A DNA stretch of 30,495 nt. Source: a virus. Lineage: Duplodnaviria > Heunggongvirae > Uroviricota > Caudoviricetes. Positions 394-30,220 of the stretch are shown here, piece after piece (positions within the stretch are counted from its first letter, which is position 1; the number at the start of each line of letters is the position of its first letter). The position numbers were made by a program, and so were the translations under genes. The notes under the pieces were generated by a model, which was not told the origin of the DNA, did not search any database, and was given only the letters and a program-made list of their open reading frames with translations. The DNA is taken from positions 1 to 30,495 of IMG/VR virus record IMGVR_UViG_2778261162_000001; one strand, given 5' to 3'.

Positions 394-396
394 GTA

Positions 397-837: not shown

Positions 838-847
838 TCACTTCCCC

Positions 848-1993: not shown

Positions 1994-1996
1994 AGC

Positions 1997-3869: not shown

Positions 3870-4056
3870 TTTTTACCTCGTTACGCGCGTCTGTGGCTTT
3901 GCCAACGGATACTTCCGCGTGCGCACGAGTGAACCAGTGCGTGGCAACTTCTTCCTCCACAGCATGACGGCCTTTAACAAACTCGCGCCGTGAACCGTCG
4001 GGAAGCGTGAGCACAAACGGGGTATGTACGTGTATTACTGCATTATTTTTTGCCAT
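3835..4056 (-). CDS. Small phage structural-module protein, unknown function
   Basis: 73 aa ORF immediately downstream of the major capsid gene on the same strand. Confidence 0.3.
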
Positions 4057-4098
4057 CGGGTCATCCTTAATGGCCCCCGCCAGGGGGCCATGTGGCTG

Positions 4099-5040: not shown

Positions 5041-5051
5041 TCGTCTGTTCC

Positions 5052-5558
5052 TTAAATCTTCCAGGAAATTTCTGCATTGCCGTCAGCATCAGCGGCACCT
5101 GTGAATTCAGCGTTGGTCAGCACCACATTTTTGCCACTGACTGACGTGGACATGAATCCACCCAGCGGCACTTTGATGGATTCATCAGTGGAGACGACAA
5201 CGTATACCGGGTCGCCTTTTTTGATGGTGCTGGCATCAAAATCAGAACCGAGATTAACAGTCACGTAGCCACGCTTCATGGCGTCGCCCGGGAAGTTCTT
5301 GCCTGTTCCCACCTGGCGAACCATGTCCGGCTGCGACGTGGTCGGATAAGGGCGCACGTAGATCCCCTTCACCTTGTCTGCGGTATCACCATCTGCCAGC
5401 GGCACGAAAAAACCGTCATCATCGTATTTACCAGCCAGGCCATAGGCAGCGAAGGCGTTATCGGATTTAAGGACCACCGGTTCGACGGTTAAGTCCTGCG
5501 GGCGAGAGACAGCCCCGGCAATGCCAACAGGCATCCGGTACAGAAATACATTATTCAT
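5052..5558 (-). CDS. Head structural or decoration-like protein
   Basis: 168 aa ORF between the scaffold/protease-like gene and the capsid gene. Confidence 0.45.
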   Translation of the reverse strand: MNNVFLYRMPVGIAGAVSRPQDLTVEPVVLKSDNAFAAYGLAGKYDDDGFFVPLADGDTADKVKGIYVRPYPTTSQPDMVRQVGTGKNFPGDAMKRGYVTVNLGSDFDASTIKKGDPVYVVVSTDESIKVPLGGFMSTSVSGKNVVLTNAEFTGAADADGNAEISWKI

Positions 5559-5561
5559 TTT

Positions 5562-6782
5562 TTACCCTTTACGGTTTGCCCAGAATTCAGCGTTTTGTTT
5601 GTTCAGGGAAGCGATACTGGTCATGCCCATGTTTAGGCGCTGTGCATCGCCGGTGGTGGTGCGGGTGTTTCGCCCTTTGGCAATCTCAGACACGGCATTA
5701 AACGCCATGTCGACCGATTGTTTCGGCAATTTGCGGATATCCGCATCACCGACGATCTGGCGAACCAGCGTTTTGTCAGCAGAAGCCAGAACCTCACGTT
5801 TGAACGCGGTCGGTTTCATCTTACGGCTGAGATCGATACCCGGAACGATAACTTCGGCACGCCAGGCTGAGTCACCAGTAATCGTGGTTTCCTCTTCATC
5901 GTCCTCGCCGTCACAGGTCGGATTATCGTCAGGCTTATTGTCGTTATCGCCCGTGGCATTTCCTTCCAGCTTAGCCAGCAGGGCTTTCAGTAATGTTTTG
6001 AGGTCATCATCACTGTCGCCGGTTGGACCTCCACCCATCTCTGGTGCTTTGTCCGGTAGTGGTTGCTGCGGGGACAGGTTGATGTTGAGATTAACGCCCT
6101 GCGGCAAATCCCCCTCATCTCCTGTAACCGATGCGGGAGCCGACTCCACCAGTTCGTTCATGGTGTCGGCATCTCCTGTCGTGATGGCTGCACGCATGCG
6201 GTTCCACCAGTTTTTCTTTTGATTTGCCATTGTGTCTCTGTCTCCAATTGCACAACGATTTCCGGCTCTGCCTTTGGGGACAAGAGCCACATGGTTTCCG
6301 GTAATATCGACCTGCTCGGCTTTACCTGGCTCGGTCTGCTCGTACTCCGCGTCATAGCCGCACGACACTTCACGCAGGCCATCTTCGATAAGCTGAATGG
6401 CGTTTTCGTCTTTGACGATAAGGTCAGCCAGCATCAAATCAGACTGCTCACCCGTCCCGCGCCGGACATTCTGGAGGTGCCCGACAGCAAGCTCTTTCCA
6501 GTTCTCGGGATTTACCAGCCGCACATTCCCGTTTTCATCTTCAGGATGCAGGATCGTGATGCTCATCCCTTCGAATGAGGCAAGCGTGGCCGGATGGAAT
6601 ACCTGCTCAGGAGAACGCGTGACGACTATTTCACCGAACTTATCGGGTTTCAGTTTTGGCAGGTCATCAGCACCATAGAGCTGCTTACCTGTTCGTCCTA
6701 TCGGCACGTCTTTGCACAGCAACGAGCCGTCAGCCAGCTGATAGCGGGTTTCCCCCAGCCGGGTATTGAAAAAATATTTCAT
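5562..6782 (-). CDS. Prohead scaffold/protease-like protein with acidic low-complexity C-terminal half
   Basis: 406 aa ORF with an Asp/Glu/Gly-rich central region (GDSDDD...DGEDDEEETT), located between the minor head gene and the capsid gene. Confidence 0.5.
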   Translation of the reverse strand: MKYFFNTRLGETRYQLADGSLLCKDVPIGRTGKQLYGADDLPKLKPDKFGEIVVTRSPEQVFHPATLASFEGMSITILHPEDENGNVRLVNPENWKELAVGHLQNVRRGTGEQSDLMLADLIVKDENAIQLIEDGLREVSCGYDAEYEQTEPGKAEQVDITGNHVALVPKGRAGNRCAIGDRDTMANQKKNWWNRMRAAITTGDADTMNELVESAPASVTGDEGDLPQGVNLNINLSPQQPLPDKAPEMGGGPTGDSDDDLKTLLKALLAKLEGNATGDNDNKPDDNPTCDGEDDEEETTITGDSAWRAEVIVPGIDLSRKMKPTAFKREVLASADKTLVRQIVGDADIRKLPKQSVDMAFNAVSEIAKGRNTRTTTGDAQRLNMGMTSIASLNKQNAEFWANRKG

Positions 6783-6796
6783 GTGTTACCTGCGAT

Positions 6797-7570
6797 TCAG
6801 GCGGGGTAAGAATGGGAGGTGGGAAAAACGATTTCTTTATAACAGCGACAATTCGGGAACTCGCCAGCGTGACCTGTCATGCCGTCAAGCGTTGGAGGTT
6901 TGCCCCATTCGACAAATTTACCTTCCATTTCCCGATGAGAATGCCTGACGTCACCATCTTCGGCTGTACGCCAGATATAACCATTCGAACCAATTGCCAG
7001 CGCACGCGCCTGATCCAGCGCGCCGGTTGCACGTCCAAGTTCAGTACGGGCAATCAGGTCAGCTCTGGACTTTGCTATATCACCCGATGCTGCTATTTCT
7101 TTAGCAAAATGTTCCGCTCTCCCACCGGTCACAACAGCTTCAATCGCCCGATTCTGGATGTCGTACACCCTGTCAGCCGCCTCGAGGGGTAGCGATTTAA
7201 TGTACTTAACCTGTTCAGCAACGATGGATTTCATCACCTGCCCTAGAGGGGCACTGTTTACCAGATTGCGTAGCTCACGGCTGATGGTTTTGCTGTGTTT
7301 ACGCCACTGCTCATCATTCTTGCGCACAATGTCGGCGGTAAAGTTTTCCGCGACCTTTGTCGCCCAGGGGGTGATGATTTCACTGTAGCGTTCCAGCGCC
7401 TCAATAATTTCCGTGATACTGTCATTTGAACCATCGTAGCGACCATTTACGATGTCCCCGACCGCCCGCGCTATCCTGCGTAGACTGGTTCGATACCGGA
7501 TTTCCGCCTGACGGTTCCTGCGGTTCGTCATCAGGTTCGCCGATGCCGGGCGGCGCTTCGTCTTCGGCAT
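6797..7570 (-). CDS. Minor head morphogenesis protein (Mu F-like / SPP1 gp7-like)
   Basis: 257 aa ORF whose C-terminus carries VRHSH and FPNCRCY motifs typical of the Mu F-type head morphogenesis domain; sits directly after the portal gene. Confidence 0.7.
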   Translation of the reverse strand: MPKTKRRPASANLMTNRRNRQAEIRYRTSLRRIARAVGDIVNGRYDGSNDSITEIIEALERYSEIITPWATKVAENFTADIVRKNDEQWRKHSKTISRELRNLVNSAPLGQVMKSIVAEQVKYIKSLPLEAADRVYDIQNRAIEAVVTGGRAEHFAKEIAASGDIAKSRADLIARTELGRATGALDQARALAIGSNGYIWRTAEDGDVRHSHREMEGKFVEWGKPPTLDGMTGHAGEFPNCRCYKEIVFPTSHSYPA

Positions 7571-8888
7571 TCTCTATGTCCTCGTCGGTAATGGATGCCC
7601 CGATGCCGGTTACGTCAGAATTTTCGCGCAAATCGGTCATAGCGGCTTTCAGTGTCATCAGACCATCACCCAGCGCCGTACTGATTGCGTTGGTGGTGTT
7701 TAACGCCACCGTTGAGCGATCGACATCAGACATTTGCCAGAGCGGGTTAAACTCAAACGTGAAATCATCCGGCAGCGGCTTGCCAAGTTCCGAACGATGC
7801 ATGATGTCCAGTATCCGACGCACCGGAAGACGTAAACGCCTCTCCTGCAACGAACTGATGCGGTCGTAATAGTTGGCAAGATCTGCATCACCGGTAGAAA
7901 ATCCTTTCGGGGACTGTCCGAACAACCGCACCAGTGGAATACCAACAGCGCCACTAATCTGTTCTGCAAACTGCGATAGGATGTCATCCAGACCACTGAA
8001 GCTGTACTGATGCGTTTCAAACTTATCCCGCGAGTCCATGAGCGTCATGCCTTCATTGCTCTGGAACTGTCGAATCAGGTCGATATTCTTCAGCAACGCT
8101 TCATACGCAGGACCACCAAGTGCGATAAGCTCGCGTAGCTTCTCCACGCTGTAGGTACGCAAATGCGCTTTGTAGACCAGCTGCGCCGCGCCGACAGTGG
8201 CGCTGTCGAACGCAGTAAGCCGATCCCAGATACGCTCTACAACCGACATTCCCCATTCGTTCTCGGTCATCTTCTGCTGAAATGGCAGCGTGACGCCATC
8301 AAAGCGAATCAGGCGACTGTGATGAATGCGCCAGGCAGGAATTCCCGTTGCTGTGGTCACCACATCGTAAAACTCAGGTTTACCCAGGTCCGGCCCCATA
8401 TCTTTAATGCGGCGGGTCAGTACCGGGTCAATCATCCAGCGGTCGAGCGGGAGAATCCCCTTAAACTTGCCTTTACCGATGGTTTCGGGTCGCAGCGGGG
8501 TCATTGGTGCCTGCCCCTCAATCATGATGAAACCCACCGCGCCGCCGTAGAGGCGCGACCATTTCAGCACGTCATTCAGCGCATCCCAGATTTGCAACTC
8601 ATCCAGTTGTGATTCTAGAATGCCACGATCTTTTGCATCAATTTCCGAAGTAATGCGAATGCCTTTGCGGGTCATATCATCCGGGATAGCATCGACTGCT
8701 TCGCCGATGATCCAGGATGAACGATAGGACCATTCCACCAGCATGCGGTTACGACTGGTGAAATTAGCCCGATAGGTGGATGCTGAGTGCTGGTTAGGTG
8801 TCTGCATCCCTACGCGGGCAATAAAATTCTCATAACCATCAGCTGTGGCCTGCGCAGTTCGCCGCAGGGCTTGTTTGTTTCGTGCCAT
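7422..8888 (-). CDS. Portal protein
   Basis: 488 aa ORF immediately downstream of terminase large subunit, with start overlapping the terminase stop and an acidic C-terminal tail; canonical position. Confidence 0.7.
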   Translation of the reverse strand: MARNKQALRRTAQATADGYENFIARVGMQTPNQHSASTYRANFTSRNRMLVEWSYRSSWIIGEAVDAIPDDMTRKGIRITSEIDAKDRGILESQLDELQIWDALNDVLKWSRLYGGAVGFIMIEGQAPMTPLRPETIGKGKFKGILPLDRWMIDPVLTRRIKDMGPDLGKPEFYDVVTTATGIPAWRIHHSRLIRFDGVTLPFQQKMTENEWGMSVVERIWDRLTAFDSATVGAAQLVYKAHLRTYSVEKLRELIALGGPAYEALLKNIDLIRQFQSNEGMTLMDSRDKFETHQYSFSGLDDILSQFAEQISGAVGIPLVRLFGQSPKGFSTGDADLANYYDRISSLQERRLRLPVRRILDIMHRSELGKPLPDDFTFEFNPLWQMSDVDRSTVALNTTNAISTALGDGLMTLKAAMTDLRENSDVTGIGASITDEDIENAEDEAPPGIGEPDDEPQEPSGGNPVSNQSTQDSAGGRGHRKWSLRWFK

Positions 8889-10510
8889 CAGGCCTGTCTC
8901 CCTAGCAGCTCCCAGATGTTCAGGGCTGAATTCATTGGGGCATAGTTGATCATCACCGAGTCGGCAAGGTTTGGCGACCGGGTTCCATCAGGCTGTTTAT
9001 CAATAACGATTTTTCCCACACCATTAATGGAATAGGTCGGCTGCGAAAGCTCGATGATGAGTTTATCTTTGAGCGCCATGCTACTGCTGATTGAGATGAT
9101 TTCGTCCGGGTTGTAAGCCATACCTTCAACCACGGCGCGCCAGGTATTCTGAAAAAGTTTACGTAACCGCCACCAGCTCTGGGCTTTGGCGTTAGCGAAG
9201 AAGTCCTTGTTCAGACGTGCGGCTTGCCCGTTGTCCCCGCGAACAGCTTCATCATCCGGATCAAATACCGCGCCACTACCTCGAAACGGTGTGGCGAGTA
9301 TTGACGGTCGGCGCGCAGCGTTACGCAGTTCGTTGATAGCGCGCGCATCGCCGCGAACGCCAGCGCCCAGCCCGTCCTCGTCAAAGCGAAACTCTTCGAG
9401 GTTGTCCTGTTCGCAAAAACCGAAGACCTTCTCGACGGACTGATAAATGTCGCTGCCCACACCAGACCATTCCCGCACATTTTCCAGGAGGAAGCCATGA
9501 CGGGTGGAAAAGGCATTTTTGTCCCTGCCTTCGTCGGCGACATCCATCGCGCCAAGTCGTTTGCCTGTTGGCTGGATACCCAGTTTGATATGCGCATCAA
9601 CGGCAGCCTGTACCCATTCTGATGGAATCAGAACGCCTTCCGCTGATGCGCTGTAGTTCAGATCAAGTTCCTGTGCCACCACCACCGGATTATCGATTTT
9701 CTCGCATTCCCTGCGATACCACTCTTCATCCTTGCGAGGATCATCCCGCCAGTGGAATGTGAATACCGGTATCTTCCCGCCATGACGCTTCTGAGCGAAC
9801 GGGTTAGCCATGCCGTTAACTGAACTCAGGTCGATACGGCAACGCGTCGTTTGTGACAACGCCGCATCAATCAGCAGAGGACGCTGAAGGAATGCAGCCT
9901 CATCAACCAGATAAAGCGTGGTACGGTCACCACGACCAATATTATCGCCAGCCTCGCCTTTGATAACGGCACCAGTTTCAGGAAACTCAACACGCATATA
10001 TGGCGCGTGCTTCTTCTCGCTCCACGAACCGCGAAACTCTACAGGTAGCGTTTCCACGAACTTGCGCGCCTTCCAGAACAATGCTTTCGGGTCACCAGTG
10101 CTGTCGACGTATTCCTCTTTACGGGAGCCGAAACCGATAACCATTTCTTTGTTGAAGAGACAAAGCGAGCAGGCCAGTCCGATCGCGGTCCAACTGAGCC
10201 CCATTTCACGGGATTTTTCGGTAATACCATTCTCCCGATTGCTCCAGCGTTCCATAATCCAGTGGATCCACTCCTCCTGCTTAGGGAAGAGTAAAAACGG
10301 AATGGTCACCGGCAGGCCATAATCAATATTACGCGGGTCCGTTGTCATGCCCCAGTCGATGATGAACTGAGCCGGATTAGTTCGGTAAAACTGTTTTAGT
10401 GCAGGCAATATTTCAGGATTCTGGCGAATGCGCTGTAGGCGTTCCATCCGCCATTCAAAAACCATCTGGTAATCAGGATGTTTAAAATCGAAGGGGAATG
10501 GTAACGGCAT
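8888..10510 (-). CDS. Terminase large subunit
   Basis: 540 aa ORF directly after the small subunit; contains an ATPase-like GxxxxGKT-type region and a C-terminal nuclease-like half typical of TerL. Confidence 0.85.
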
Positions 10511-10512
10511 AC

Positions 10513-11064
10513 TTAGCCCATTATTTTTCTATACGCCTCTGCAGCCTGCTCCGGCGTTAAGTTGGTAATTTCTGTTCTGACTGGTCCTCCATCAGCGCCA
10601 GTCACTTCATTTTTGACGTTGTCTTTAAACGCCTGAACAGAAACATGACGCCCAAGCAATTCAAGATTTTTAACCTTATCAGGCCATTTGATTTTCTTCA
10701 GAAGTGCGGCGCTATCTGCGGATACCATCTCCACGACATCCATTCCTGATAGCGTTGTGCGCCATACCTTAGGCCAGTCTTTGATGGGTTTTAGCTCACC
10801 GTTTTGCAGGAGAATGTCAAGCACATCCATCTGGTCGATTTCAATAAGGCGATTAAGTACATATTCTGCATTTATTCCAACAGAGTCATTGCGTTGCGCT
10901 TTCAATTCGGAGATTCTGAATTGTATGTCAGGTTTTGACATGTTTTCGGACGCAGTACGGTTGGCTGTCTTTGCGCTGTACCCCGCCCGAATAGCCGCTT
11001 GCGTAGCGTTTAAATCGATGAGGTACTCGCGACAGAACATTTCTTGCTTGTCGGTGAGTGCCAT
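10513..11064 (-). CDS. Terminase small subunit
   Basis: 183 aa ORF beginning [30 protein letters not shown], a conserved terminase small subunit N-terminal HTH motif; precedes TerL. Confidence 0.8.
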
Positions 11065-22311: not shown

Positions 22312-22447
22312 CCATTAATCACCAGATGCTTCGTGCTGCACAGAACAAAGCAGTAATAGCCAGATTTATTGGTGATTCAAAAATGTGGCTTGAAGCAAAT
22401 AAAGCGATGAAATCAGCTATCAACCTTCCGTGGTATCGCAGGAAATG
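22296..22447 (+). CDS. kil: Kil-like small protein
   Basis: 50 aa ORF MRNEIAINHQMLRAAQNKAVIARFIGDSKMWLEANKAMKSAINLPWYRRK; ARFIGDSKMWLEA resembles lambda Kil ATFIGDEKMFREA; canonical position after cIII. Confidence 0.5.
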
Positions 22448-22702
22448 AGTTTTACAGATAACTGGTCAGACGAAGAATTCATTCGTCAGATGAAAGATTT
22501 AATCGGTAACGAAGGAGATATTCATGTCACTTGCAACCACAGTGAAGGAGAGCAAGTTACAGAGACGCATGTACACGCAGAAAGCTCTCTGGTATCGCCA
22601 TAATGGTGACCGCGAAGGAATGCGGGTATGCCTTAATTTGTCCCGAGTCGAAGTATTAAATCAGCGTTATTTCCTTGGGCCGTGTCCATTCTGAGGTGAA
22701 TT

Positions 22703-23410
22703 ATGGATTTGAACAAATTCGATGAGCCATTCAGCCCTGAAGATATCGAATGGCGAATACAGCAAAGCGGTAAAACACGCGATGGCAAGGTGTGGGCTAT
22801 GGTGCTGGCTTATGTCACGAACCGGGCAATCATGAAACGCCTGGACGATGTTTGCGGCAAAGCAGGATGGCGCAATGAATACCGCGATATTCCCAACAAC
22901 GGCGGAGTTGAATGCGGCATATCAATCAAGATTGATTCCGAATGGGTAACCAAATGGGATGCTGCTGAAAACACGCAGGTAGAAGCCGTCAAAGGTGGTC
23001 GTTCAGGTGCAATGAAGCGTGCTGCCGTTCAGTGGGGAATCGGTCGGTATCTGTATAACCTTGAGGAAGGTTTCGCACAAACATCTCTCGATAAAAAGCA
23101 GGGGTGGCACAGGGCAAAACTGAAGGATGGAACAGGATTTTGCTGGCTCCCTCCATCGCTGCCGGGATGGGCAATCCCAGCATCAGATAACAAACCATCA
23201 CCAGAAAATACCAACCAGAAATCTCCATCGGTTGACTGCGAACAAATCCTGAAAGACTTCAGCGATTATGCGTCAACAGAAACTGACAAGAAAAAACTCA
23301 TCGAGCGTTATCAGCGTGACTGGCAATTAATGGCTGGCAACGAGGAGGCGCAGGCTAAATGCGTTCAGGTAATGAACATCAGAGTTAACGAACTAAAACA
23401 GGCGGCATAA
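22703..23410 (+). CDS. Single-strand annealing recombinase (Rad52-like family)
   Basis: 235 aa; occupies the bet position in the PL operon, directly upstream of ssb; the central motif MKRAAVQWGIGRYLY is remembered as Rad52-like. Confidence 0.65.
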   Translation: MDLNKFDEPFSPEDIEWRIQQSGKTRDGKVWAMVLAYVTNRAIMKRLDDVCGKAGWRNEYRDIPNNGGVECGISIKIDSEWVTKWDAAENTQVEAVKGGRSGAMKRAAVQWGIGRYLYNLEEGFAQTSLDKKQGWHRAKLKDGTGFCWLPPSLPGWAIPASDNKPSPENTNQKSPSVDCEQILKDFSDYASTETDKKKLIERYQRDWQLMAGNEEAQAKCVQVMNIRVNELKQAA

Positions 23411-23917
23411 ATGGCAAGCAGAGGCGCAAATAAGGTGATTATCCTTGGTCGGGTAGGACAAGACCCGGAAGTTCGATACTCACCATCAGGAACAGCGTTC
23501 GCTAACCTGACAATAGCCACGTCAGAACAATGGCGAGATAAAAATACTGGCGAGCAAAAGGAATTGACTGAATGGCATCGTGTTGCTGTATCCGGGAAAC
23601 TGGCTGAGGTCGTGGGGCAGTATGTGAAAAAAGGTGATCAGATTTATTTCGAGGGAATGCTGAGAACCAGAAAGTGGAAAGACCAGTCAGGGCAAGACCG
23701 TTACACAACCGAGGTTCATGTCGGAATTAATGGCGTGATGCAAATGCTTGGCGGCATTGGCGACAGCAAACAACAAGCAGCCAGCAGGCAATCACAGAAG
23801 CCACAGCAGCAATCATCACCAGCACAACACAACGAACCTCCGATGGATTTTGACGACGATATACCCTTTGCACCAGTAACTCTCCCCTTCCCTCGTCACG
23901 CTATTCACGCAATTTAA
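23411..23917 (+). CDS. ssb: Single-stranded DNA-binding protein
   Basis: 168 aa; OB-fold N-terminus [23 protein letters not shown]..., Gln/Pro-rich linker, acidic C-terminal tail DFDDDIPF. Confidence 0.9.
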
Positions 23918-23930
23918 TCAGGAGAAAATC

Positions 23931-24224
23931 ATGCCAGCGCCTCTGTATGGTGCGGATGACGCGCGCCGCTGTTCCGGCAATTCCGTATCGGAGGTGCTGG
24001 ATAAATTCAGGAAAAACTACAACCGGATAATGTCGCTACCGCAGGAAACGAAAGAGGAAAAGGAATTTCGCCATTGTATATGGCTTGCAGAGAAAGAAGA
24101 ACGCGAGCGAATTTACCAGACATCAATCCGACCATTCCGCAAAGCCACATATACCCACTTCCCTGAAATTGACCCGCGCCTGCGTAATTACCGCTCACGC
24201 TATGGCGCTATCAGTAATGACTGA
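23931..24224 (+). CDS. Early-left protein of unknown function
   Basis: 97 aa ORF, co-oriented, 13 nt after ssb. Confidence 0.5.
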
Positions 24225-24234
24225 GGAATTTACC

Positions 24235-24399
24235 ATGAGAGGACTTGCATACAATCCCGGCATTCTTCCGGCAGAAATGATTATTCGCCAACGCGTAAAG
24301 CCAATGCCATCGAGAGAGGAATTGCTTAAGAGAAATTCTTTTCCATCAGTAAATCAAAACAAATATCTGAATGCGATGTGGCGGAGTGGGAAGAAATGA
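24235..24399 (+). CDS. Small early protein of unknown function
   Basis: 54 aa ORF from ATG with Shine-Dalgarno GAGGAA 7 nt upstream; under the 60 aa track threshold. Confidence 0.35.
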
Positions 24400-24674
24400 A
24401 ACAAATGTCACTAATTGAGATGGATGGATTTCTGAAAGGTAAATGCATCCCACGAGATTTAAAGGTTAACGAAACAAACGCTGAATATCTTGTCCGTAAG
24501 TTCGGTGAACTTGAATCAAAACTCAACGAGCAGCGTGAGTATTACGAAGGTGTTATCTCGGATGGGAGTAAGCGCATTGCTGAACTGGAGAAAAGCGAAG
24601 AGCAACTCATTATTGAGCAAGCAACTCACTGGATGCCACTACCAGAACCGCCACAGGAGTCGAAGAGTGAATAA
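24378..24674 (+). CDS. Early-left protein of unknown function (coiled-coil-like)
   Basis: 98 aa ORF; the actual start may be the Met at 24396 or 24405. Confidence 0.45.
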
Positions 24675-24888
24675 AGCAGAGTTATTTCAGAAAATATCGG
24701 CTCTCGCGACTGAATGCCACGCTATAGCATCTGAGCTTGATGTTGGCGATGAACGAACCGAGATGTTCGAAATATACAGTGTGCTGCGCAATCTCTGTCG
24801 GCGTGGCTACGCCACTCAAGTAGGGCGAATGACTAACCCACTACTCTCATCCTGTGATGAGGATGACTCGGATGAGGATGACGAATGA
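24666..24888 (+). CDS. Small acidic early protein of unknown function
   Basis: 74 aa from GTG at 24666 preceded by AGGAG; acidic C-terminus DEDDSDEDDE; translationally coupled to the next gene. Confidence 0.4.
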
Positions 24889-25550
24889 TGCATAAATCAG
24901 TAGCCGGTGAGTTTCAGAAGGAAGTCGATAATACTACCGTTCTATTGGACGATATTTTAAGCATTCTCGCGCTGCTTGAGGCTGGCGATTGGTCAGAACA
25001 TTGCACTAAAACAGAGCTAGGCGGTCGGCTTGAAAGAGAGATTACACGACTTATTGGTGATGCGCAGGAAGCTACAGTCACTAGTTATGAGTTAATCGCT
25101 GAAGCCTGGCGTTTGATGGATGGACAAGATCCTAAAACCAGCGATTGGCATAGCAAGGCTTCGAAGTATTTAAATTCCAATAGGGTAGAAAAAGTTGATG
25201 ATGTGAAACCGAAGCCAGTAGACCACGGTTTCCGCGATAACTGCGAATGCTCTAGTTGCCAGACCACGGCCCGTATTTGTTCCGAATTGACAGATAAGTC
25301 CAGCCTAATCTACGAAGTTAATGTAGGCGGTAATACATGGGTCGAATGCACAAGAGCTGCATACGTAAGAGCAAAAGACAAGGGTGAATTAACCAGAGTT
25401 GTTACCAATCACCCAAATAATGAGCTTAAAGATCACCAGATTCGAGAACTGGTGAACGAGTTGAGGGATATTGCGGTTCAGTACCACGGAACGCAGCAAT
25501 TGCGGGAGAAGATTGCCAGAGCAGTGAACAACTCAGTCCGTAAAAAATAA
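24885..25550 (+). CDS. Early-left protein of unknown function (221 aa, Cys cluster CECSSC)
   Basis: Last gene of the PL-direction operon before a strong hairpin at 25569-25591. Confidence 0.55.
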   Translation: MMHKSVAGEFQKEVDNTTVLLDDILSILALLEAGDWSEHCTKTELGGRLEREITRLIGDAQEATVTSYELIAEAWRLMDGQDPKTSDWHSKASKYLNSNRVEKVDDVKPKPVDHGFRDNCECSSCQTTARICSELTDKSSLIYEVNVGGNTWVECTRAAYVRAKDKGELTRVVTNHPNNELKDHQIRELVNELRDIAVQYHGTQQLREKIARAVNNSVRKK

Positions 25551-25605
25551 GCAATAGTACGATAAAGAGGCCCCATGCTCTTGATGGGGCCTGTAGCAAC
25601 TAGCG

Positions 25606-25689
25606 TTATGGACGCTGGTTTACGTACTCAATGATCGCTTTGATAATCGCGAACATCGGCGGCACGATTTTGAACAGTAAGTTAACCAT
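25606..25689 (-). CDS. Candidate small peptide (27 aa, partly hydrophobic), speculative
   Basis: ATG preceded by GAGG at 6 nt spacing; peptide MVNLLFKIVPPMFAIIKAIIEYVNQRP; followed on the minus strand by the 8 bp GC-rich hairpin at 25569-25591. Confidence 0.3.
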   Translation of the reverse strand: MVNLLFKIVPPMFAIIKAIIEYVNQRP

Positions 25690-25993
25690 AACAGGCCTCA
25701 CTTAGTTTTATCGCGCCTAGCTGCAAATACCTTTGGGCTTGCCTTTGCAGTTGCAATATCTGTAGTCGCCAGATACTTACGGCACGATTTCGAGTTAAGG
25801 TAAGGTTTTAGAGTCACCAAAAACCTGGACTTAAATCTTCTTTGAGAACAACGATGTTTAGTAAATGGTCATTATTACCTGGTATGACCACTCAACGTTT
25901 CTTGATGAATCCAGTACATTCGGTTAATCTTAATTCAGTCGCCAGATACTTATGGCTCAGGAACAGAGCCGCAAACTCTGTTTCCTTTTAAAA

Positions 25994-26020
25994 AGCCCAG
26001 CCTAGTCAACTGGGCTTTTT
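25994..26020. terminator. Bidirectional rho-independent terminator-like hairpin
   Basis: Stem AGCCCAG/CTGGGCT with 9 nt loop, flanked by an A-run upstream and a T-run downstream. Confidence 0.55.
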
Positions 26021-26315
26021 AATGTCTATTTTTAACCCAATGAACCTTCAATACCGCAACATCAATGTCTTGCGAATTAAGATAGTGTGTATAGGTTATA
26101 CATGCAAGTGCATAACTCTGTGGATAACTCAGGAAGGAAAAAGTAGCTTCCGCGCAATTTAGGCCAGACAAGGCTTTCGCAAAAGTCAACGGAGAGAAAA
26201 AATTTGTTAAAAATAACGTTTGTTGGAATAGTATATATTTATGCCTTTCAATAGTTAGCATCTTATTAACATCTTTTTTAAGAGATAGAGTTCAAAAATA
26301 TATAGCTTCAACATA

Positions 26316-26335
26316 TACTGTATATATACACAGCA
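26316..26335 (+). promoter_or_regulatory. LexA box (SOS operator) upstream of the UmuD'-like gene
   Basis: TACTGTATATATACACAGCA fits CTG-N10-CAG with an AT-rich centre; 17 bp upstream of the start codon. Confidence 0.65.
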
Positions 26336-26351
26336 TTAAGAGGCGAGTATT

Positions 26352-26807
26352 ATGGGCTTCCCTTCTCCTGCGGCGGATTATGCTGAGAGCCGTATTTCTC
26401 TTGATCAGCAGATAATTAGACATCCTTCAGCGACCTACTTCTTGAGGGCAGCTGGTAGCCATCATCGTGAGGGAATATTGCAGGGTGCATTGCTGGTGGT
26501 CGATTCATCACTCACTCCTGTTGATGGATCTCTTCTTGTATGTGCTCTGGATGGGGAATATCGCGTAAAAAGATACCGGAAGTATCCGCGCCGCCATGAT
26601 TGTCTTTCTCCTAATGCAGGAAAAGCAGAATGGCTAAATCATCAGCAGAGCGCAAAGCCGATCAGAGAGCCAAGCAAGCATCATCCGGTATGCGTAAGCT
26701 GGAGCTTGTACTTGATGCTCAGGAAATTGAAATGCTGGATCGTAACTGAGCCACGCGCCGCTTCAGGCATTCGCCTTGCGAGTTTGGTGAGTACATCGCG
26801 TTACTGA
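26352..26807 (+). pseudogene. UmuD'-like (LexA/S24 fold) gene, probably degenerate: similarity to UmuD 25-110 only, catalytic Ser apparently replaced, divergent C-terminus
   Basis: MGFPSPAADYAESRISLDQQIIRHPSATYFLRAAGSHH...LLVVDSS...ALDGEYRVKR aligns to E. coli UmuD from the Cys24-Gly25 cleavage site onward; GDSM is replaced by GSHH; no similarity after about residue 90. Confidence 0.5.
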
Positions 26808-26968
26808 GCCGCCAGGATGATGCACATGTGCGCTGGCGTATAAAATCGATCAGCAGAAAACGTTGCGGTAAGTGCGGCGAGAGAGTTCCTGTTAATTCAT
26901 GCCCGTGTAATGGTGACTCACAATGCTGGGTGACCAAAGGCTGGCACGAAACAAAATTAATGATATAA
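26630..26968 (+). pseudogene. ORF interrupted by in-frame TGA at 26747-26749; downstream part Cys-rich (zinc-finger-like)
   Basis: Shine-Dalgarno AGGAAAAG then MAKSSAERKADQRAKQASSGMRKLELVLDAQEIEMLDRN, TGA, then 72 in-frame codons ending ...RKRCGKCGERVPVNSCPCNGDSQCWVTKGWHETKLMI. Confidence 0.35.
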
Positions 26969-26996
26969 ATCTCTGTGACATGTCACGGAGGCGGCA

Positions 26997-27425
26997 ATGA
27001 AATTAGACCAGCAATATCTAAAAGATCTACTTATCGCATTCGAAAAAACTCGTGGCCCTGACACGATGCTTAGTGAACTAGAGGATAATGGCTTTAATAG
27101 ATATGACCAAGATTTTATTTTCCATATGCGATTATTATATGACTACGAATTAATAGTCAGGGTTGATGGAAAACCTGGGTTCGGTCATATAATGTCCAAA
27201 GCGTTAGGGGAAGGTGTTGGATATAGTTGGATCGAAGTACCACTGAGGTTGACAGCAAGAGGGCATGATTTTATTGCTGACTTACGTCAAAAGGATGTCT
27301 GGCAAGCTATAAAAACAAACTTTAAGGATGAGGGAATTAGTACACTTATGAGTGTTTCAAAATCACTAGCAAAAGGCTTTGCAAGGAAAAAGATAAAAGA
27401 TATTACAGGAATAGATATTGAATAA
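26997..27425 (+). CDS. Protein of unknown function (142 aa)
   Basis: Strong Shine-Dalgarno GGAGG; perfect 12 bp palindrome GTGACATGTCAC at 26975-26986 just upstream; own terminator-like hairpin downstream. Confidence 0.5.
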   Translation: MKLDQQYLKDLLIAFEKTRGPDTMLSELEDNGFNRYDQDFIFHMRLLYDYELIVRVDGKPGFGHIMSKALGEGVGYSWIEVPLRLTARGHDFIADLRQKDVWQAIKTNFKDEGISTLMSVSKSLAKGFARKKIKDITGIDIE

Positions 27426-27470
27426 TTCTTAGCATCAAGCAACTACTGCCTTTGGTGGAAATTATATCTG

Positions 27471-27495
27471 AACTCGCTACGGCGAGTTTTGTTTT
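27471..27495 (+). terminator. Terminator-like hairpin
   Basis: Stem ACTCGC/GCGAGT, loop TACG, followed by TTTTGTTTT. Confidence 0.5.
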
Positions 27496-27508
27496 ATGGA
27501 GATGATAA

Positions 27509-27676
27509 ATGCACTTCCGAGTCACAGGTGAATGGAATGGAGAGCCATTCAACAGGGTTATCGAAGCAGAGAACATCAACGACTGCTATAACCACTGGAT
27601 GATATGGGCGCAGATAGCGCATGCAGACGTAACCAATATTCGAATTGAAGAACTGAAAGAACACCATGCCGCCTGA
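27509..27676 (+). CDS. Small protein of unknown function (55 aa)
   Basis: Shine-Dalgarno GGAG 7 nt upstream; MHFRVTGEWNGEPFNRVIEAENINDCYNHWMIWAQIAHADVTNIRIEELKEHHAA; stop codon sits inside a terminator hairpin. Confidence 0.4.
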   Translation: MHFRVTGEWNGEPFNRVIEAENINDCYNHWMIWAQIAHADVTNIRIEELKEHHAA

Positions 27677-27689
27677 TGGCGGTTTTTTA
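27668..27689 (+). terminator. Rho-independent terminator
   Basis: Stem GCCGCC/GGCGGT, loop TGAT, followed by TTTTTT. Confidence 0.6.
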
Positions 27690-27702
27690 TTGGAGACAAG
27701 AA

Positions 27703-28047
27703 ATGTCAGATTTGGCTATGAAGGTTTTGAAATGGCAATCGACTGGCGATGTCGGCATCAGTAGCGCAACTCTTGCCTCAATCGCATGTGGACTGAAAAA
27801 GAATATCTATGGTCATAGCTTCGGTGCTCCACATGACGCAGCCGATTTCCGGCGATGCGTTGCACTTGTTGAGCAGATTCCAGAAATCAGAGATTCATTC
27901 GACAAGGTTGCAAAGCGCGTTCCGGCATTCAAAGGCATCCTCAACGAATGGGATTCTCTCGTTGCTCTGTTGAAGTCTGAAATGAAGATACACGGAAACA
28001 AAGCACCAGAGACTTACAGAAGAATCAGCGAGCTACGCAAGGACTAA
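27703..28047 (+). CDS. Protein of unknown function (114 aa)
   Basis: ATG with Shine-Dalgarno GGAGA upstream (the Met at 27676 lies inside the terminator and is less likely). Confidence 0.5.
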   Translation: MSDLAMKVLKWQSTGDVGISSATLASIACGLKKNIYGHSFGAPHDAADFRRCVALVEQIPEIRDSFDKVAKRVPAFKGILNEWDSLVALLKSEMKIHGNKAPETYRRISELRKD

Positions 28048-28129
28048 CCACAGTCTCACACTCGATGAGGCCTGTTCATTTCTCAAGATATCCAGACCTA
28101 CCATTGCTGCATCAATGCGGCTTTTTATT

Positions 28130-28150
28130 GCCTGATTTGCAGGTTCGATT
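28130..28150. repeat. Fragment resembling the T-arm of tRNA-Arg (argW); possible att scar
   Basis: ATTTGCAGGTTCGATTCC matches the recalled argW segment AATTGCAGGTTCGATTCC (17 of 18) and then diverges. Confidence 0.4.
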
Positions 28151-28171
28151 CCCTATTCGGAGATAGCACTC

Positions 28172-28372
28172 ATGCAACACGAACTACAGCCTGATTCACT
28201 GGTTGATTTGAAATTCATCATGGCTGATACTGGCTTCGGTAAGACCTTCATCTATGACCGGATTAAGTCCGGCGACCTGCCTAAAGCCAAAGTTATCCAC
28301 GGACGAGCAAGATGGTTATATCGTGACCATTGTGAATTCAAAAATAAGCTCTTAAGCCGCGCCAATGGGTAA
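28172..28372 (+). CDS. AlpA-family transcriptional regulator / excisionase-like protein
   Basis: 66 aa; KFIMADTGFGKTFIYDRIKSGDLPKAKVIHGRARWLYRDHCEF is typical of the AlpA HTH family found next to P4-type integrases. Confidence 0.75.
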   Translation: MQHELQPDSLVDLKFIMADTGFGKTFIYDRIKSGDLPKAKVIHGRARWLYRDHCEFKNKLLSRANG

Positions 28373-28440
28373 AATAGCGGGTAAAATATTTTTCACATCT
28401 AAAAAATACCATTCCAATCAATCCCCTGCCGCGCCAAGTA

Positions 28441-28460
28441 GATGCCTGCAGGGGACACCA
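28441..28460. repeat. Fragment matching the 3' end of tRNA-Arg (argW) including CCA; likely attR-type scar
   Basis: GATGCCTGCAGGGGACACCA versus the recalled argW 3' end GATTCCTGCAGGGGACACCA (19 of 20); upstream sequence does not form the rest of a tRNA. Confidence 0.5.
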
Positions 28461-28901
28461 GATACCCTTCAAACGAAATCTACCTTCACCCCGTAAAAGA
28501 TGGGTTTGGCAGCACACTTGCCTTATATCTACTCATTTTTACTGCAACAGGTTGAAATCTCAGCACTGTCAGAAAGCGCTGATGACTAAACAGCCCTGGG
28601 CCGGGCGATGTAACCATCACACAGAATCCTGATAGCGAAATATGGCGTGACTCGATACTTCACTCCGCAATGCATTCCTTGATGAATTCGCAGGACCGTG
28701 ATACACGGGACAGGTCACTGAATGACGACAATGTCCTGGAAATCAGCGAACCGCGCATCTGAAGTACATTTGAGCGACTGTACCAGAACATGAATGAGGC
28801 GTTTGGATTAGGCGATTATTAGCAGGGCTAAGCATTTTACTATTATTATTTTCCGGTTGAGGGATATAGAGCTATCGACAACAACCGGAAAAAGTTTACG
28901 T

Positions 28902-30149
28902 CTATATTGCTGAAGGTACAGGCGTTTCCATAACTATTTGCTCGCGTTTTTTACTCAAGAAGAAAATGCCAAATAGCAACATCAGGCAGACAATACCCGA
29001 AATTGCGAAGAAAACTGTCTGGTAGCCTGCGTGGTCAAAGAGTATCCCAGTCGGCGTTGAAAGCAGCACAATCCCAAGCGAACTGGCAATTTGAAAACCA
29101 ATCAGAAAGATCGTCGACGACAGGCGCTTATCAAAGTTTGCCACGCTGTATTTGAAGACGGATATGACACAAAGTGGAACCTCAATGGCATGTAACAACT
29201 TCACTAATGAAATAATCCAGGGGTTAACGAACAGCGCGCAGGAAAGGATACGCAACGCCATAATCACAACTCCGATAAGTAATGCATTTTTTGGCCCTAC
29301 CCGATTCACAAAGAAAGGAATAATCGCCATGCACAGCGCTTCGAGTACCACCTGGAATGAGTTGAGATAACCATACAGGCGCGTTCCTACATCGTGTGAT
29401 TCGAATAAACCTGCATAAAAGACAGGAAAAAGTTGTTGATCAAAAATGTTATAGAAAGACCACGTCCCCACAATAAATATGACGAAAACCCAGAAGTTTC
29501 GATCCTTGAAAACTGCGATAAAATCCTCTTTTTTTACCCCTCCCGCATCTGCCGCTACGCACTGGTGATCCTTATCTTTAAAACGCATGTTGATCATCAT
29601 AAATACAGCGCCAAATAGCGAGACCAACCAGAAGTTGATATGGGGACTGATACTAAAAAATATGCCGGCAAAGAACGCGCCAATAGCATAGCCAAAAGAT
29701 CCCCAGGCGCGCGCTGTTCCATATTCGAAATGAAAATTTCGCGCCATTTTATCGGTGAAGCTATCAAGCAAACCGCATCCCGCCAGATACCCCAAGCCAA
29801 AAAATAGCGCCCCCAGAATTAGACCTACAGAAAAATTGCTTTGCAGTAACGGTTCATAAACGTAAATCATAAACGGTCCGGTCAAGACCAGGATGAAACT
29901 CATACACCAGATGAGCGGTTTCTTCAGACCGAGTTTATCCTGAACGATGCCGTAGAACATCATAAATAGAATGCTGGTAAACTGGTTGACCGAATAAAGT
30001 GTACCTAATTCCGTCCCTGTCAACCCTAGATGTCCTTTCAGCCAAATAGCGTATAACGACCACCACAGCGACCAGGAAATAAAAAAGAGAAATGAGTAAC
30101 TGGATGCAAAACGATAGTACGCATTTCTGAATGGAATATTCAGTGCCAT
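28902..30149 (-). CDS. cscB: Sucrose:proton symporter CscB (LacY-family MFS permease)
   Basis: 415 aa translation begins MALNIPFRNAYYRFASSYSFLFFISWSLWWSLYAIWLKGH and is recognised as E. coli CscB over its length; 12 TM helices. Confidence 0.95.
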   Translation of the reverse strand: MALNIPFRNAYYRFASSYSFLFFISWSLWWSLYAIWLKGHLGLTGTELGTLYSVNQFTSILFMMFYGIVQDKLGLKKPLIWCMSFILVLTGPFMIYVYEPLLQSNFSVGLILGALFFGLGYLAGCGLLDSFTDKMARNFHFEYGTARAWGSFGYAIGAFFAGIFFSISPHINFWLVSLFGAVFMMINMRFKDKDHQCVAADAGGVKKEDFIAVFKDRNFWVFVIFIVGTWSFYNIFDQQLFPVFYAGLFESHDVGTRLYGYLNSFQVVLEALCMAIIPFFVNRVGPKNALLIGVVIMALRILSCALFVNPWIISLVKLLHAIEVPLCVISVFKYSVANFDKRLSSTIFLIGFQIASSLGIVLLSTPTGILFDHAGYQTVFFAISGIVCLMLLFGIFFLSKKREQIVMETPVPSAI

Positions 30150-30220
30150 AATTACCTGCCTGTCGTTAAAAAATTCACGTCCTATTTAGAGATAAGAGCG
30201 ACTTCGCCGTTTACTTCTCA

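What the first reader, a model, noticed from the sequence alone, without database searches (positions are those of the whole stretch)
26316..26968. LexA-box-controlled UmuD'-like gene lacking the cleavable N-terminal arm, followed by a TGA-interrupted Cys-rich ORF
A near-consensus SOS box sits 17 bp upstream of an ORF that begins exactly at the position equivalent to the UmuD Cys24-Gly25 autocleavage site, so it encodes a pre-activated UmuD'-like module. The catalytic Ser region (GDSM) reads GSHH and similarity stops after about 90 residues. Instead of umuC, the downstream gene is a different-frame ORF with a good Shine-Dalgarno that hits an in-frame TGA after 39 codons and then continues for 72 codons ending in a C4-type Cys cluster. 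This is either a decaying SOS-regulated module or an unusual SOS-induced two-gene system (possibly with stop-codon recoding).
Basis: partly seen in the sequence, partly recalled or inferred. Interest (0 to 1): 0.6.

Follow-up and report, generated by a model that had tools for sequence, protein, structure and literature searches.

The report
Truncated phage humD plus nonsense-mutated regulator gene
This is debris in a lambdoid E. coli prophage: the SOS-controlled front 80 codons of a P1-type humD (UmuD'-like) gene, joined by an old recombination accident to a neighbouring phage regulator gene that has a premature stop codon. It is ordinary gene decay, not a new SOS system or a recoding event.

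Summary
The sequence features are real. There is an 18/20 LexA box at 26316-26335. An ORF starts at the residue equivalent to UmuD Gly25. A second ORF has TGA at codon 40, followed by 72 more codons that include a Cys cluster.

Both genes have intact relatives, and those relatives are not natural partners. Gene 1 is the first 80 codons of humD, the known LexA-regulated, naturally "pre-cleaved" UmuD' homologue of phage P1 (129 aa). It breaks off at an 8-bp microhomology (TCCGCGCC, 26585-26592) and runs into the 3' tail of ninX. Gene 2 is a 112-aa phage protein (PHROG 536). My model indicates a ribbon-helix-helix domain plus a Cys-rich tail. Its Cys40 codon TGT has become TGA.

No SECIS-like structure follows the TGA. 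Alleles carrying TGA evolve neutrally (pN/pS 1.1, against 0.13 for intact copies next to terS). Other copies in the same lineage carry independent stops and frameshifts. RefSeq already marks both genes as pseudogenes.

The most interesting thing nearby is an unannotated small-ORF/antisense-RNA cassette at 25568-26023. It accompanies the LexA box in all 19 loci with enough sequence to check.

The parts
26291..26319 (+). Promoter-like site TTCAAA-17-TATACT; its -10 hexamer overlaps the LexA box.
   Evidence: Consensus scan only. The sequence is conserved in six phage-plasmid and prophage copies. Activity was not tested.
26316..26335 (.). LexA operator (SOS box) TACTGTATATATACACAGCA.
   Evidence: 18/20 to consensus, with 0 expected by chance. 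It lies in the same position as the annotated LexA site of P1 lxr/humD. The CTGT and ACAG arms are invariant in six diverged copies while the centre varies.
26338..26343 (+). Shine-Dalgarno AAGAGG of humD.
   Evidence: Read directly from the sequence.
26352..26592 (+). 5' fragment of a P1-type humD gene, codons 1-80 of 129.
   Evidence: NCBIfam HumD equivalog scores 139.5 bits over profile positions 1-95 of 129. The DNA is 96% identical to intact humD of plasmid pEC332_01 up to 26587, and 85% identical to P1 humD up to 26592. It aligns to UmuD residues 25-103. PGAP calls it a pseudogene missing its C-terminus.
26585..26592 (.). Recombination junction: the 8-bp microhomology TCCGCGCC, shared by humD and the 3' end of ninX.
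   Evidence: Five-way alignment of the window, two humD genes and two ninX genes. The same junction is present in every clade-A locus examined.
26593..26637 (+). 3' tail of a lambdoid ninX gene. Its TAA at 26635-26637 overlaps the next gene's start.
   Evidence: Alignment to the intact ninX / 112-aa gene pair in L005 and L006.
26352..26807 (+). Chimeric 151-codon ORF: 80 HumD codons followed by 71 out-of-frame codons read across the ninX tail and the next gene.
   Evidence: ORF list. Pfam S24 matches residues 1-82 only. Nothing beyond that has similarity to anything.
26630..26968 (+). Pseudogene of a 112-aa phage protein (PHROG 536; ribbon-helix-helix domain plus Cys-rich tail).
   Evidence: The intact 112-aa homologue matches phrog_536 at E 1.6e-54. 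There are 394 homologous protein clusters, nearly all 112 aa. PGAP marks it 'internal stop'.
26747..26749 (+). Premature stop TGA, replacing the TGT codon of Cys40.
   Evidence: DNA alignment with intact alleles. Among fetched loci 119 are TGT and 22 are TGA. Cys40 is invariant in 27 close family members.
26864..26947 (+). Cys-rich C-terminal motif: C79, C82, C91, C93, C99, H106.
   Evidence: These positions are invariant in the close family. C79 and C82 are invariant across 62 distant relatives.
26997..27425 (+). Intact DUF2513 gene immediately downstream (context). It is followed by a terminator-like hairpin at 27470-27489.
   Evidence: Pfam PF10711 at E 2.1e-10 and phrog_585. It is annotated as intact in 5 of the 6 long-form complete genomes and frameshifted in PK6. 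Terminator scan.

Best explanation
The region is a recombination scar inside the distal early-left region of a lambdoid prophage integrated at argW.

A P1-type humD gene encodes a UmuD' homologue that is made without the cleavable arm and is repressed by LexA. This copy recombined at an 8-bp microhomology with the 3' end of a ninX gene. The event deleted humD codons ~81-129. It also brought in the gene that normally follows ninX in phiV10-type phages, a 112-aa ribbon-helix-helix / Cys-rich putative regulator.

That transplanted gene later suffered a TGT->TGA nonsense mutation at Cys40 and has drifted neutrally since.

What probably still works is the LexA-repressed promoter (inferred, not shown). 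On DNA damage it should produce a transcript that encodes a truncated, misfolded HumD fragment, a 39-aa stub and the intact DUF2513 gene. It probably ends at the hairpin near 27470-27489. Neither a functional UmuD'-like protein nor a functional regulator is made.
For: Intact parents exist, separately.
- Full-length humD (129 aa) with the same LexA box and upstream DNA occurs on ~110-kb phage-plasmids. Identity is 96% over window 25215-26587.
- P1 humD is annotated with the LexA site and as complementing UmuD'. The gene is described as LexA-regulated in PMC9603915.
- The 112-aa gene is intact next to ninX or an ASCH gene and terS in many prophages and phages.

The junction is mapped.
- It lies at TCCGCGCC, 26585-26592, and is shared by all 45 clade-A loci.
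- The HumD family profile is covered only to position 95 of 129, and UmuD only for residues 25-103 of 139.

The stop is a decay mutation, not a signal.
- It is TGT->TGA at a Cys invariant in the close family.
- The 54 nt starting at the TGA fold no better than shuffles (z = +0.35).
- There is no Rfam hit in that stretch at E<=10.
- pN/pS is 1.12 among TGA alleles, 0.33 among their TGT sisters and 0.13 among copies next to terS. Fisher p = 0.003.
- The window allele also has R47H and R66H at family-invariant positions.
- Sister copies carry independent lesions: another stop in L051, frameshifts in L065 and L028, and replaced C-termini in L085, L097 and L107.
- One TGA sub-lineage has also lost Cys99.

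Existing annotation agrees.
- PGAP marks both genes as pseudogenes in all six complete genomes with this arrangement. These sit at three or more different integration sites.
- In two of those genomes the LexA box or promoter region has itself been cut, by a group II intron or by ISKox3.
Against: - No expression data exist. LexA binding and promoter activity are inferred from sequence and from the P1 annotation.
- The TGA allele is common: about half of the clade-A copies I fetched, in three sub-lineages up to 13 nt apart. It is found in all seven long-form copies. A purely deleterious lesion would not spread like that. This is expected for a dispensable passenger gene, but a selected loss of function or some residual use cannot be excluded.
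- The pN/pS estimate for TGA alleles rests on few changes (15 replacement and 3 silent states).
- A stop at a conserved Cys is the classic signature of a selenoprotein. I rejected that reading on indirect evidence only.
Confidence: 0.9

Rival explanations
1. Promoter capture. The humD coding fragment is junk, but its LexA-repressed promoter has been retained because it now gives SOS-inducible expression of the intact downstream DUF2513 gene, and perhaps of genes as far as the excisionase torI.
For: - The box, the -35/-10 hexamers and the SD are intact in the window.
- DUF2513 is intact in 5 of the 6 long-form complete genomes (frameshifted in PK6).
- No strong terminator was found between 26352 and 27425.
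Against: - Most copies of the same module lack the promoter altogether. The short form starts at 26487 in 38 of 45 clade-A loci, so DUF2513 does not need it.
- In two strains the box or promoter region has been cut by mobile elements.
- Terminator-like hairpins at 27470-27489, 27668-27683 and 28106-28121 lie before torI.
- The gene already sits in the pL operon.
Confidence: 0.2
2. Stop-codon recoding. The TGA at codon 40 is decoded as selenocysteine or by read-through, giving a full-length 112-aa protein under SOS control.
For: - The TGA replaces a Cys that is invariant in the close family, the pattern seen in Sec/Cys homologue pairs.
- The downstream frame stays open for 72 codons in all 22 TGA alleles.
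- E. coli has the Sec machinery (general knowledge).
Against: - The 54 nt starting at the TGA give no hairpin better than shuffled sequence (z +0.35). The intact TGT alleles fold equally or better.
- No Rfam family, SECIS models included, matches there at E<=10.
- pN/pS is ~1.1 in TGA alleles.
- Invariant residues have been lost downstream: R47H and R66H in the window, and C99Y in another TGA lineage.
- Cys40 is not conserved in more distant family members, so it is unlikely to be a catalytic redox residue.
Confidence: 0.02
3. The 80-residue HumD fragment, or the 151-aa chimera, is a functional SOS-induced modulator. For example, it might poison UmuD'2C or bind RecA filaments.
For: - The ORF has an intact start, SD and operator.
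- Its differences from the plasmid humD are mostly synonymous: 9 silent and 2 replacement.
Against: - The fragment lacks the part equivalent to UmuD 104-139, about a quarter of the S24 fold, so a stable fold is unlikely.
- The 71-codon tail is out-of-frame read-through of two other genes and has no homologues.
- Most descendants have deleted the first 45 codons as well.
- The silent-biased differences are explained by divergence between two once-functional alleles before the truncation.
Confidence: 0.05

Closest known systems
Bacteriophage P1 HumD (NCBIfam NF051876, 'HumD family'). McLenigan et al. 1999, J Bacteriol 181:7005, is known to me only from reference lists.
   Same: - It begins MGFPSPAADY..., at the UmuD Gly25 position.
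- The LexA box lies just upstream of the ATG (16 nt here, 19 nt in P1).
- There is no adjacent umuC.
- The DNA is 85% identical to P1 humD and 96% identical to humD of P1-like phage-plasmids.
   Different: - Only codons 1-80 of 129 remain; the C-terminal 49 residues are replaced by out-of-frame sequence.
- There are a D35G change in the ADSHH motif and an M31L change.
- The copy is in a lambdoid prophage, not in P1.
E. coli UmuD / UmuD' (PDB 1UMU, 1AY9, 8GMT)
   Same: The S24 fold segment equivalent to UmuD residues 25-103 aligns at E 4e-21. The Lys97 equivalent (K73) is present.
   Different: - There is no N-terminal arm and no umuC partner.
- The C-terminal third is missing.
- The GDSM Ser motif is not conserved as such.
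PHROG 536, 'transcriptional regulator': 112-aa proteins of phiV10 / TL-2011b-type phages and many enterobacterial prophages
   Same: The gene is 89-97% identical in DNA over its full length. It has the same Cys/His positions in the tail.
   Different: - It is interrupted by TGA at codon 40.
- It belongs to a displaced sub-lineage (clade A) that sits in the early-left region next to DUF2513 and xis, rather than between ninX or an ASCH gene and terS.
- That sub-lineage shows relaxed or neutral evolution.
Ribbon-helix-helix (CopG/Arc/MetJ-type) DNA-binding proteins
   Different: - No sequence-level match to any Pfam family or PDB chain.
- There is an extra long helix and a Cys-rich C-terminal motif.

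Membership tests
HumD family (P1-type UmuD' homologue) | The protein starts at the residue equivalent to UmuD Gly25, with no cleavable arm. | tested here: met
   Query residue 2 aligns to UmuD' chain residue 1 and to UmuD residue 25. The N-terminus is identical to that of P1 HumD.
HumD family (P1-type UmuD' homologue) | Score above the curated cut-off of the NF051876 equivalog model. | tested here: met
   139.5 bits against a cut-off of 120, but only profile positions 1-95 of 129 are covered.
HumD family (P1-type UmuD' homologue) | Full-length ~129-aa protein with the C-terminal part of the S24 fold. | tested here: not met
   Homology ends at codon ~80 (window 26587-26592). PGAP: 'missing C-terminus'.
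HumD family (P1-type UmuD' homologue) | LexA operator in the promoter region. | tested here: met
   18/20 to consensus with none expected by chance. It is homologous in position to the annotated P1 LexA site. Binding itself was not tested.
HumD family (P1-type UmuD' homologue) | Substitutes for UmuD' in SOS mutagenesis. | not testable with these tools
   This needs a genetic complementation assay.
umuDC-type operon | A Y-family polymerase gene (umuC, mucB or rumB) immediately downstream. | tested here: not met
   The downstream genes are the ninX tail, the PHROG 536 pseudogene and DUF2513. P1 humD is likewise followed by phd-doc, not umuC.
PHROG 536 112-aa RHH/Cys-rich phage protein | Uninterrupted ORF of ~112 codons. 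| tested here: not met
   TGA at codon 40, whereas 119 of 142 fetched copies read TGT.
PHROG 536 112-aa RHH/Cys-rich phage protein | Conserved C-terminal Cys/His positions (C79, C82, C91, C93, C99, H106). | tested here: met
   All are present in the window's reading frame after the stop.
Bacterial selenoprotein gene (UGA = Sec) | In-frame UGA at a position where homologues have Cys. | tested here: met
   TGT in intact alleles, TGA here. Cys40 is invariant in the close family but not in distant members.
Bacterial selenoprotein gene (UGA = Sec) | SECIS stem-loop immediately 3' of the UGA. | tested here: not met
   MFE -14.9 kcal/mol against a shuffle mean of -15.9 (z +0.35). No Rfam match in that stretch at E<=10.
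Bacterial selenoprotein gene (UGA = Sec) | Purifying selection on the codons downstream of the UGA. | tested here: not met
   pN/pS is 1.12 among TGA alleles, against 0.13 in intact clade B. Fisher p = 0.003.

The most novel reading that the evidence does not exclude
The humD remnant is not inert. Its LexA-repressed promoter has been co-opted as an SOS-inducible promoter for the intact DUF2513 gene, or for a short regulatory peptide. Together with the always-linked upstream small-ORF/antisense-RNA cassette (25568-26023), it forms a mobile SOS-responsive accessory module that moves between P1-like phage-plasmids and lambdoid prophages.
Probability: 0.15. Interest if true: 0.35.

Novelty: already known. 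Interest (0 to 1): 0.1.

Why it matters
It matters little for biology and somewhat for annotation.

- It is a clean, fully traceable example of how prophage mosaics form. The crossover is at an 8-bp microhomology, a passenger gene then dies, and the dead module spreads among prophages at several attachment sites.
- It warns that a stop at a conserved Cys and an "arm-less UmuD" are not signs of recoding or of a new SOS system here.
- It exposes database artefacts built from split gene calls: a 40-aa PHROG family and protein clusters of 39 aa and 46 aa.
- The intact 112-aa family, which sits just upstream of terS and is under strong purifying selection, remains uncharacterised. So does the small-ORF/sRNA cassette next to the LexA box. 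Both are better targets than the finding itself.

Tried and rejected
- Selenocysteine or read-through: I folded the 54 nt starting at the TGA in the window and in two intact alleles and ran Rfam at E<=10. Nothing was found, and I rejected this reading.
- Assumption that the window is strain 13C1065T: the first BLAST hit was 100% identical over 801 bp, but only 24923-28460 matches that strain. The best overall match is strain AST215. therefore describes another strain's locus, not the window.
- First AlphaFold run on 27 close homologues gave pLDDT 54.7 and was discarded. A second run with 62 diverse relatives gave 89.6.
- Sequence searches of the 112-aa family found nothing: Pfam, NCBIfam and PDB, with a single sequence and with a profile.
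- The McLenigan 1999 paper is not held in the library, so HumD function is cited from the P1 GenBank annotation and from reference lists.
- The 27-aa peptide matched nothing in Pfam, PHROGs or NCBIfam or in the paper library. It is too short for the large protein search.
- RNA duplex folding over long partners was uninformative.
- The 80-aa ORF 26019-26261(-) matches phrog_28987. It lies in the least conserved stretch of the region, which has a 1-base indel among homologues, so I regard it as a spurious call.

Full report
**1. What is in the sequence**

- TACTGTATATATACACAGCA at 26316-26335 matches the LexA consensus at 18 of 20 positions. It is the only such site in the 30.5-kb window, and none of 100 dinucleotide-preserving shuffles gave a hit at up to three mismatches.
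- A promoter-like TTCAAA-17-TATACT overlaps the box.
- AAGAGG lies 8 nt before the ATG at 26352.
- ORF 26352-26807 is 151 codons. Its residues 2-79 align to residues 1-79 of crystallised UmuD' and to residues 25-103 of full-length UmuD at E ~1e-20 to 1e-21. It therefore starts exactly at the post-cleavage Gly25 position.
- A second ORF starts at 26630 behind an AGGA. It reaches TGA at 26747-26749 after 39 codons, and the same frame then continues for 72 codons to 26968.

**2. Where the window comes from**

- Positions 20000-30446 are 99.2% identical to the chromosome of E. coli AST215. There this DNA is the early-left arm of a full-size lambdoid prophage, ending with torI (xis) next to the csc/dsd locus.
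- Positions 51-10695 resemble structural genes of phage vB_EcoM-606R2, and 12437-24523 resemble the early region of HK446/Sf6.
- My first assumption, that the window was strain 13C1065T, was wrong. Only 24923-28460 matches that strain.

**3. The first gene is a truncated humD**

- The ORF hits the NCBIfam equivalog 'HumD family translesion DNA polymerase' at 139.5 bits, but covers only profile positions 1-95 of 129. Pfam S24 covers residues 1-82 only.
- The DNA from 25215 to 26587 is 96% identical to a ~110-kb phage-plasmid, pEC332_01. In that plasmid the same LexA box precedes an intact 129-aa humD.
- Against phage P1 itself the match is 85%. It runs from the first base of the LexA box to 26592.
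- The P1 GenBank record annotates that box as the 'LexA binding site in the regulatory region of lxr and humD', and says HumD 'functionally complements E. coli UmuD''. PMC9603915 describes humD as a LexA-regulated SOS gene.
- The experimental paper (McLenigan et al. 1999) is known to me only from reference lists and is not held in the library.
- HumD homologues are common in temperate phages, including lambdoid and P22-like ones.
- It follows that the 'missing arm', the LexA box and the absence of umuC are defining, known properties of HumD.
- The GSHH/GDSM observation depends on where a one-residue gap is placed. P1 HumD reads ADSHH, and the window differs from it by D35G.

**4. Why similarity stops**

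- A five-way alignment shows the window following humD up to ...AAGTATCCGCGCC. It then follows the last ~45 nt of ninX (...TCCGCGCCGCCATGATTG...).
- The two parents share the octamer TCCGCGCC (26585-26592), so this is a microhomology-mediated junction.
- After the junction, the humD frame reads out of frame across the ninX tail and the next gene until a chance stop at 26805-26807.

**5. The second gene is a nonsense-mutated 112-aa phage gene**

- In many prophages and phages, ninX (or an ASCH-domain gene) is followed by a 339-bp gene that overlaps its stop codon and lies just upstream of terS.
- Its product is 112 aa and matches PHROG 536, 'transcriptional regulator', at E 1.6e-54. It has 394 homologous clusters across Enterobacteriaceae, almost all 112 aa long.
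- The window's copy is colinear with these. It differs only by point substitutions, one of which turns TGT (Cys40) into TGA.
- Cys40, C79, C82, C91, C93, C99 and H106 are invariant among 27 close relatives. Across 62 more distant relatives only C79 and C82 are invariant, C99 is nearly so, and Cys40 is not conserved.
- The family has no Pfam, NCBIfam or PDB sequence match.
- Codon 40 lies in the first RHH helix, so the 39-aa product cannot form the fold (inference from the model).

**6. Is the TGA meaningful?**

I took the selenocysteine idea seriously, because a stop at a conserved Cys is the classic signature. The evidence is against it.
- The 54 nt starting at the TGA fold no better than shuffles (z = +0.35). 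The intact alleles fold as well or better.
- Rfam finds nothing in that stretch at E<=10.
- I extracted the gene from 142 fetched loci: 119 have TGT and 22 have TGA.
- The copies fall into two clades. Clade B lies next to terS. Clade A lies in the early-left region next to DUF2513 and xis/int.
- Pairwise pN/pS is 0.13 in clade B, 0.33 in clade-A TGT alleles and 1.12 in TGA alleles.
- Replacement versus silent states are 15:3 in TGA alleles and 31:42 in clade B, Fisher p = 0.003.
- The window allele also carries R47H and R66H at family-invariant positions.
- Other clade-A copies show independent damage: a second nonsense codon (L051), frameshifts (L065, L028), replaced C-termini (L085, L097, L107), and loss of Cys99 in one TGA sub-lineage.
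- This is the pattern of a dispensable, decaying passenger gene.

**7. History of the module**

- Every clade-A locus carries the same humD/ninX junction, so the fusion happened once.
- Most copies (38 of 45) retain only a 111- to 141-bp internal humD piece, starting at 26487 or 26457.
- Seven loci, including the window type, keep the promoter-proximal part of humD, and all seven have the TGA.
- The six complete E. coli genomes with this long form carry it in prophages or remnants at three or more different sites: argW/dsdC or csc, thrW/proA, and near sbmC.
- In two of those genomes a group II intron or ISKox3 has cut the DNA at or just inside the LexA box.
- PGAP annotates the pair as pseudogenes in all six ('missing C-terminus' and 'internal stop').

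**8. How it most likely works now**

- Shown: the operator, promoter hexamers and SD are intact; both coding regions are broken.
- Inferred: LexA represses a promoter that, on DNA damage, transcribes the humD stub, the dead regulator gene and the intact DUF2513 gene. Transcription probably ends at the hairpin at 27470-27489.
- The HumD stub lacks the equivalent of UmuD 104-139 and carries 71 nonsense-frame residues, so no UmuD'-like activity is expected.
- A weak alternative is that the promoter is kept because it serves DUF2513. Against this, most copies of the module lack the promoter.

**9. Verdict**

The arm-less, LexA-controlled UmuD' homologue is the known HumD family, and the locus is already annotated as two pseudogenes. 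Interest is low.

**10. Seen nearby**

- The ~770 bp between the preceding gene and the LexA box is unannotated in more than 100 E. coli plasmids and about 30 chromosomes, yet it is highly organised.
- A 27-codon ORF on the minus strand (25686..25606, MVNLLFKIVPPMFAIIKAIIEYVNQRP) has a GAGG SD and a strong terminator at 25592..25568. It changes mostly synonymously between copies that are ~90% identical in this region: 6 silent against 2-3 replacement codons.
- On the plus strand, 25937-26023 looks like an ~87-nt sRNA. By eye it has a TTGATG-17-TAATCT promoter, followed by a stem-loop and a bidirectional terminator. It gives a sub-threshold Rfam hit to AgrB, the antisense RNA of the LexA-regulated dinQ toxin: 27.6 bits against a gathering score of 40, E 0.02.
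- Its first 20 nt are a direct repeat of 25764-25783. They are therefore complementary, with one G·U pair, to the putative mRNA about 80 nt upstream of the small ORF.
- In 22 of 22 loci found with a degenerate pattern for the peptide, both repeat copies are present at fixed spacing. A CTGT-N8-ACAG box lies ~655-660 nt away in all 19 loci with enough upstream sequence.
- The layout resembles chromosomal SOS-linked type I toxin-antitoxin loci (tisB/istR, dinQ/agrB). No toxicity, transcript or LexA dependence has been shown.

Noticed in passing
window 25568-26023 (small ORF 25606-25686 minus strand; terminator 25568-25592; repeats 25764-25783 and 25937-25956; candidate sRNA 25937-26023 plus strand): An unannotated cassette that looks like a type I toxin-antitoxin locus.
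- A conserved 27-aa ORF changes mostly synonymously between copies.
- A divergent ~87-nt candidate sRNA has a 5' 20 nt complementary to the ORF's putative 5' UTR.
- The sRNA gives a sub-threshold Rfam hit to AgrB (27.6 bits against a gathering score of 40).
- The two repeat copies are present in 22/22 loci, and a LexA-type box ~655-660 nt away in 19/19 loci with enough upstream sequence.
- The region is unannotated in more than 100 E. coli phage-plasmids.
- The peptide matches nothing in Pfam, PHROGs, NCBIfam or the paper library.
   Followed up: partly
intact homologues of window 26630-26968, e.g. L003:4001-4339 and L005:3046-3384: The intact 112-aa family is conserved across Enterobacteriaceae and sits directly upstream of terS in phiV10/TL-2011b-type phages. 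It is under strong purifying selection (pN/pS 0.13) and has no Pfam or PDB match. A confident AlphaFold model (pLDDT 89.6) suggests a ribbon-helix-helix domain plus a Cys-rich C-terminal motif. It is an uncharacterised, probably zinc-binding, phage regulator.
   Followed up: partly
databases: phrog_34005; protein clusters P0199 (39 aa) and P0155 (46 aa): A 40-aa PHROG family matches residues 1-40 of the 112-aa protein. Protein clusters of 39 aa and 46 aa match only its N-terminal or C-terminal part. These look like families created by gene callers splitting the TGA allele. Phage Chlobot, whose allele is intact (TGT), is nevertheless annotated with a 46-aa 'transcriptional regulator' and an overlapping 'UmuD-like protein'.
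   Followed up: partly
window 26079-26220: This stretch of the variable region between the candidate sRNA and the LexA box is 84-88% identical to the chromosomal ypaB region of E. coli. The meaning is unknown.
   Followed up: no
window 26019-26261 minus strand: An 80-codon ORF ends at the bidirectional terminator and matches phrog_28987. It lies in the least conserved part of the region, which has a 1-base indel among homologues, so it is probably a spurious call. A minus-strand promoter-like site (26324..26297) overlaps the LexA box. This recalls the divergent lxr/humD arrangement annotated in P1.
   Followed up: partly
L010:~3001 and L011:~2998 (other E. coli strains): In strain 97.3 a group II intron (ltrA) abuts the LexA box. 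In strain PK6 an ISKox3 has removed its left half. Homology to the window starts at 26317 and 26327 respectively. This is further decay of the same module.
   Followed up: partly
window 13571-13726 minus strand: Two adjacent phage-borne tRNA genes, tRNA-Thr(TGT) and tRNA-Asn(GTT). In the related AST215 prophage, a tRNA-Asn lies between the lysis genes and the Q antiterminator gene.
   Followed up: no
window 1-25000: The prophage is a mosaic. Positions 51-10695 are 98% identical to structural and terminase genes of Escherichia phage vB_EcoM-606R2. Positions 12437-24523 are 96-97% identical to the early regions of HK446 and Sf6. The closest chromosome, AST215, instead has P22-type structural genes.
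   Followed up: no
window 27470-27489, 27668-27683, 28106-28121: Three terminator-like hairpins lie between DUF2513 and torI. The scan of 26300-28600 found 9 terminator-like sites in all, against 1.7 expected in shuffles. They would limit read-through from the LexA-controlled promoter towards the excisionase gene.
   Followed up: no
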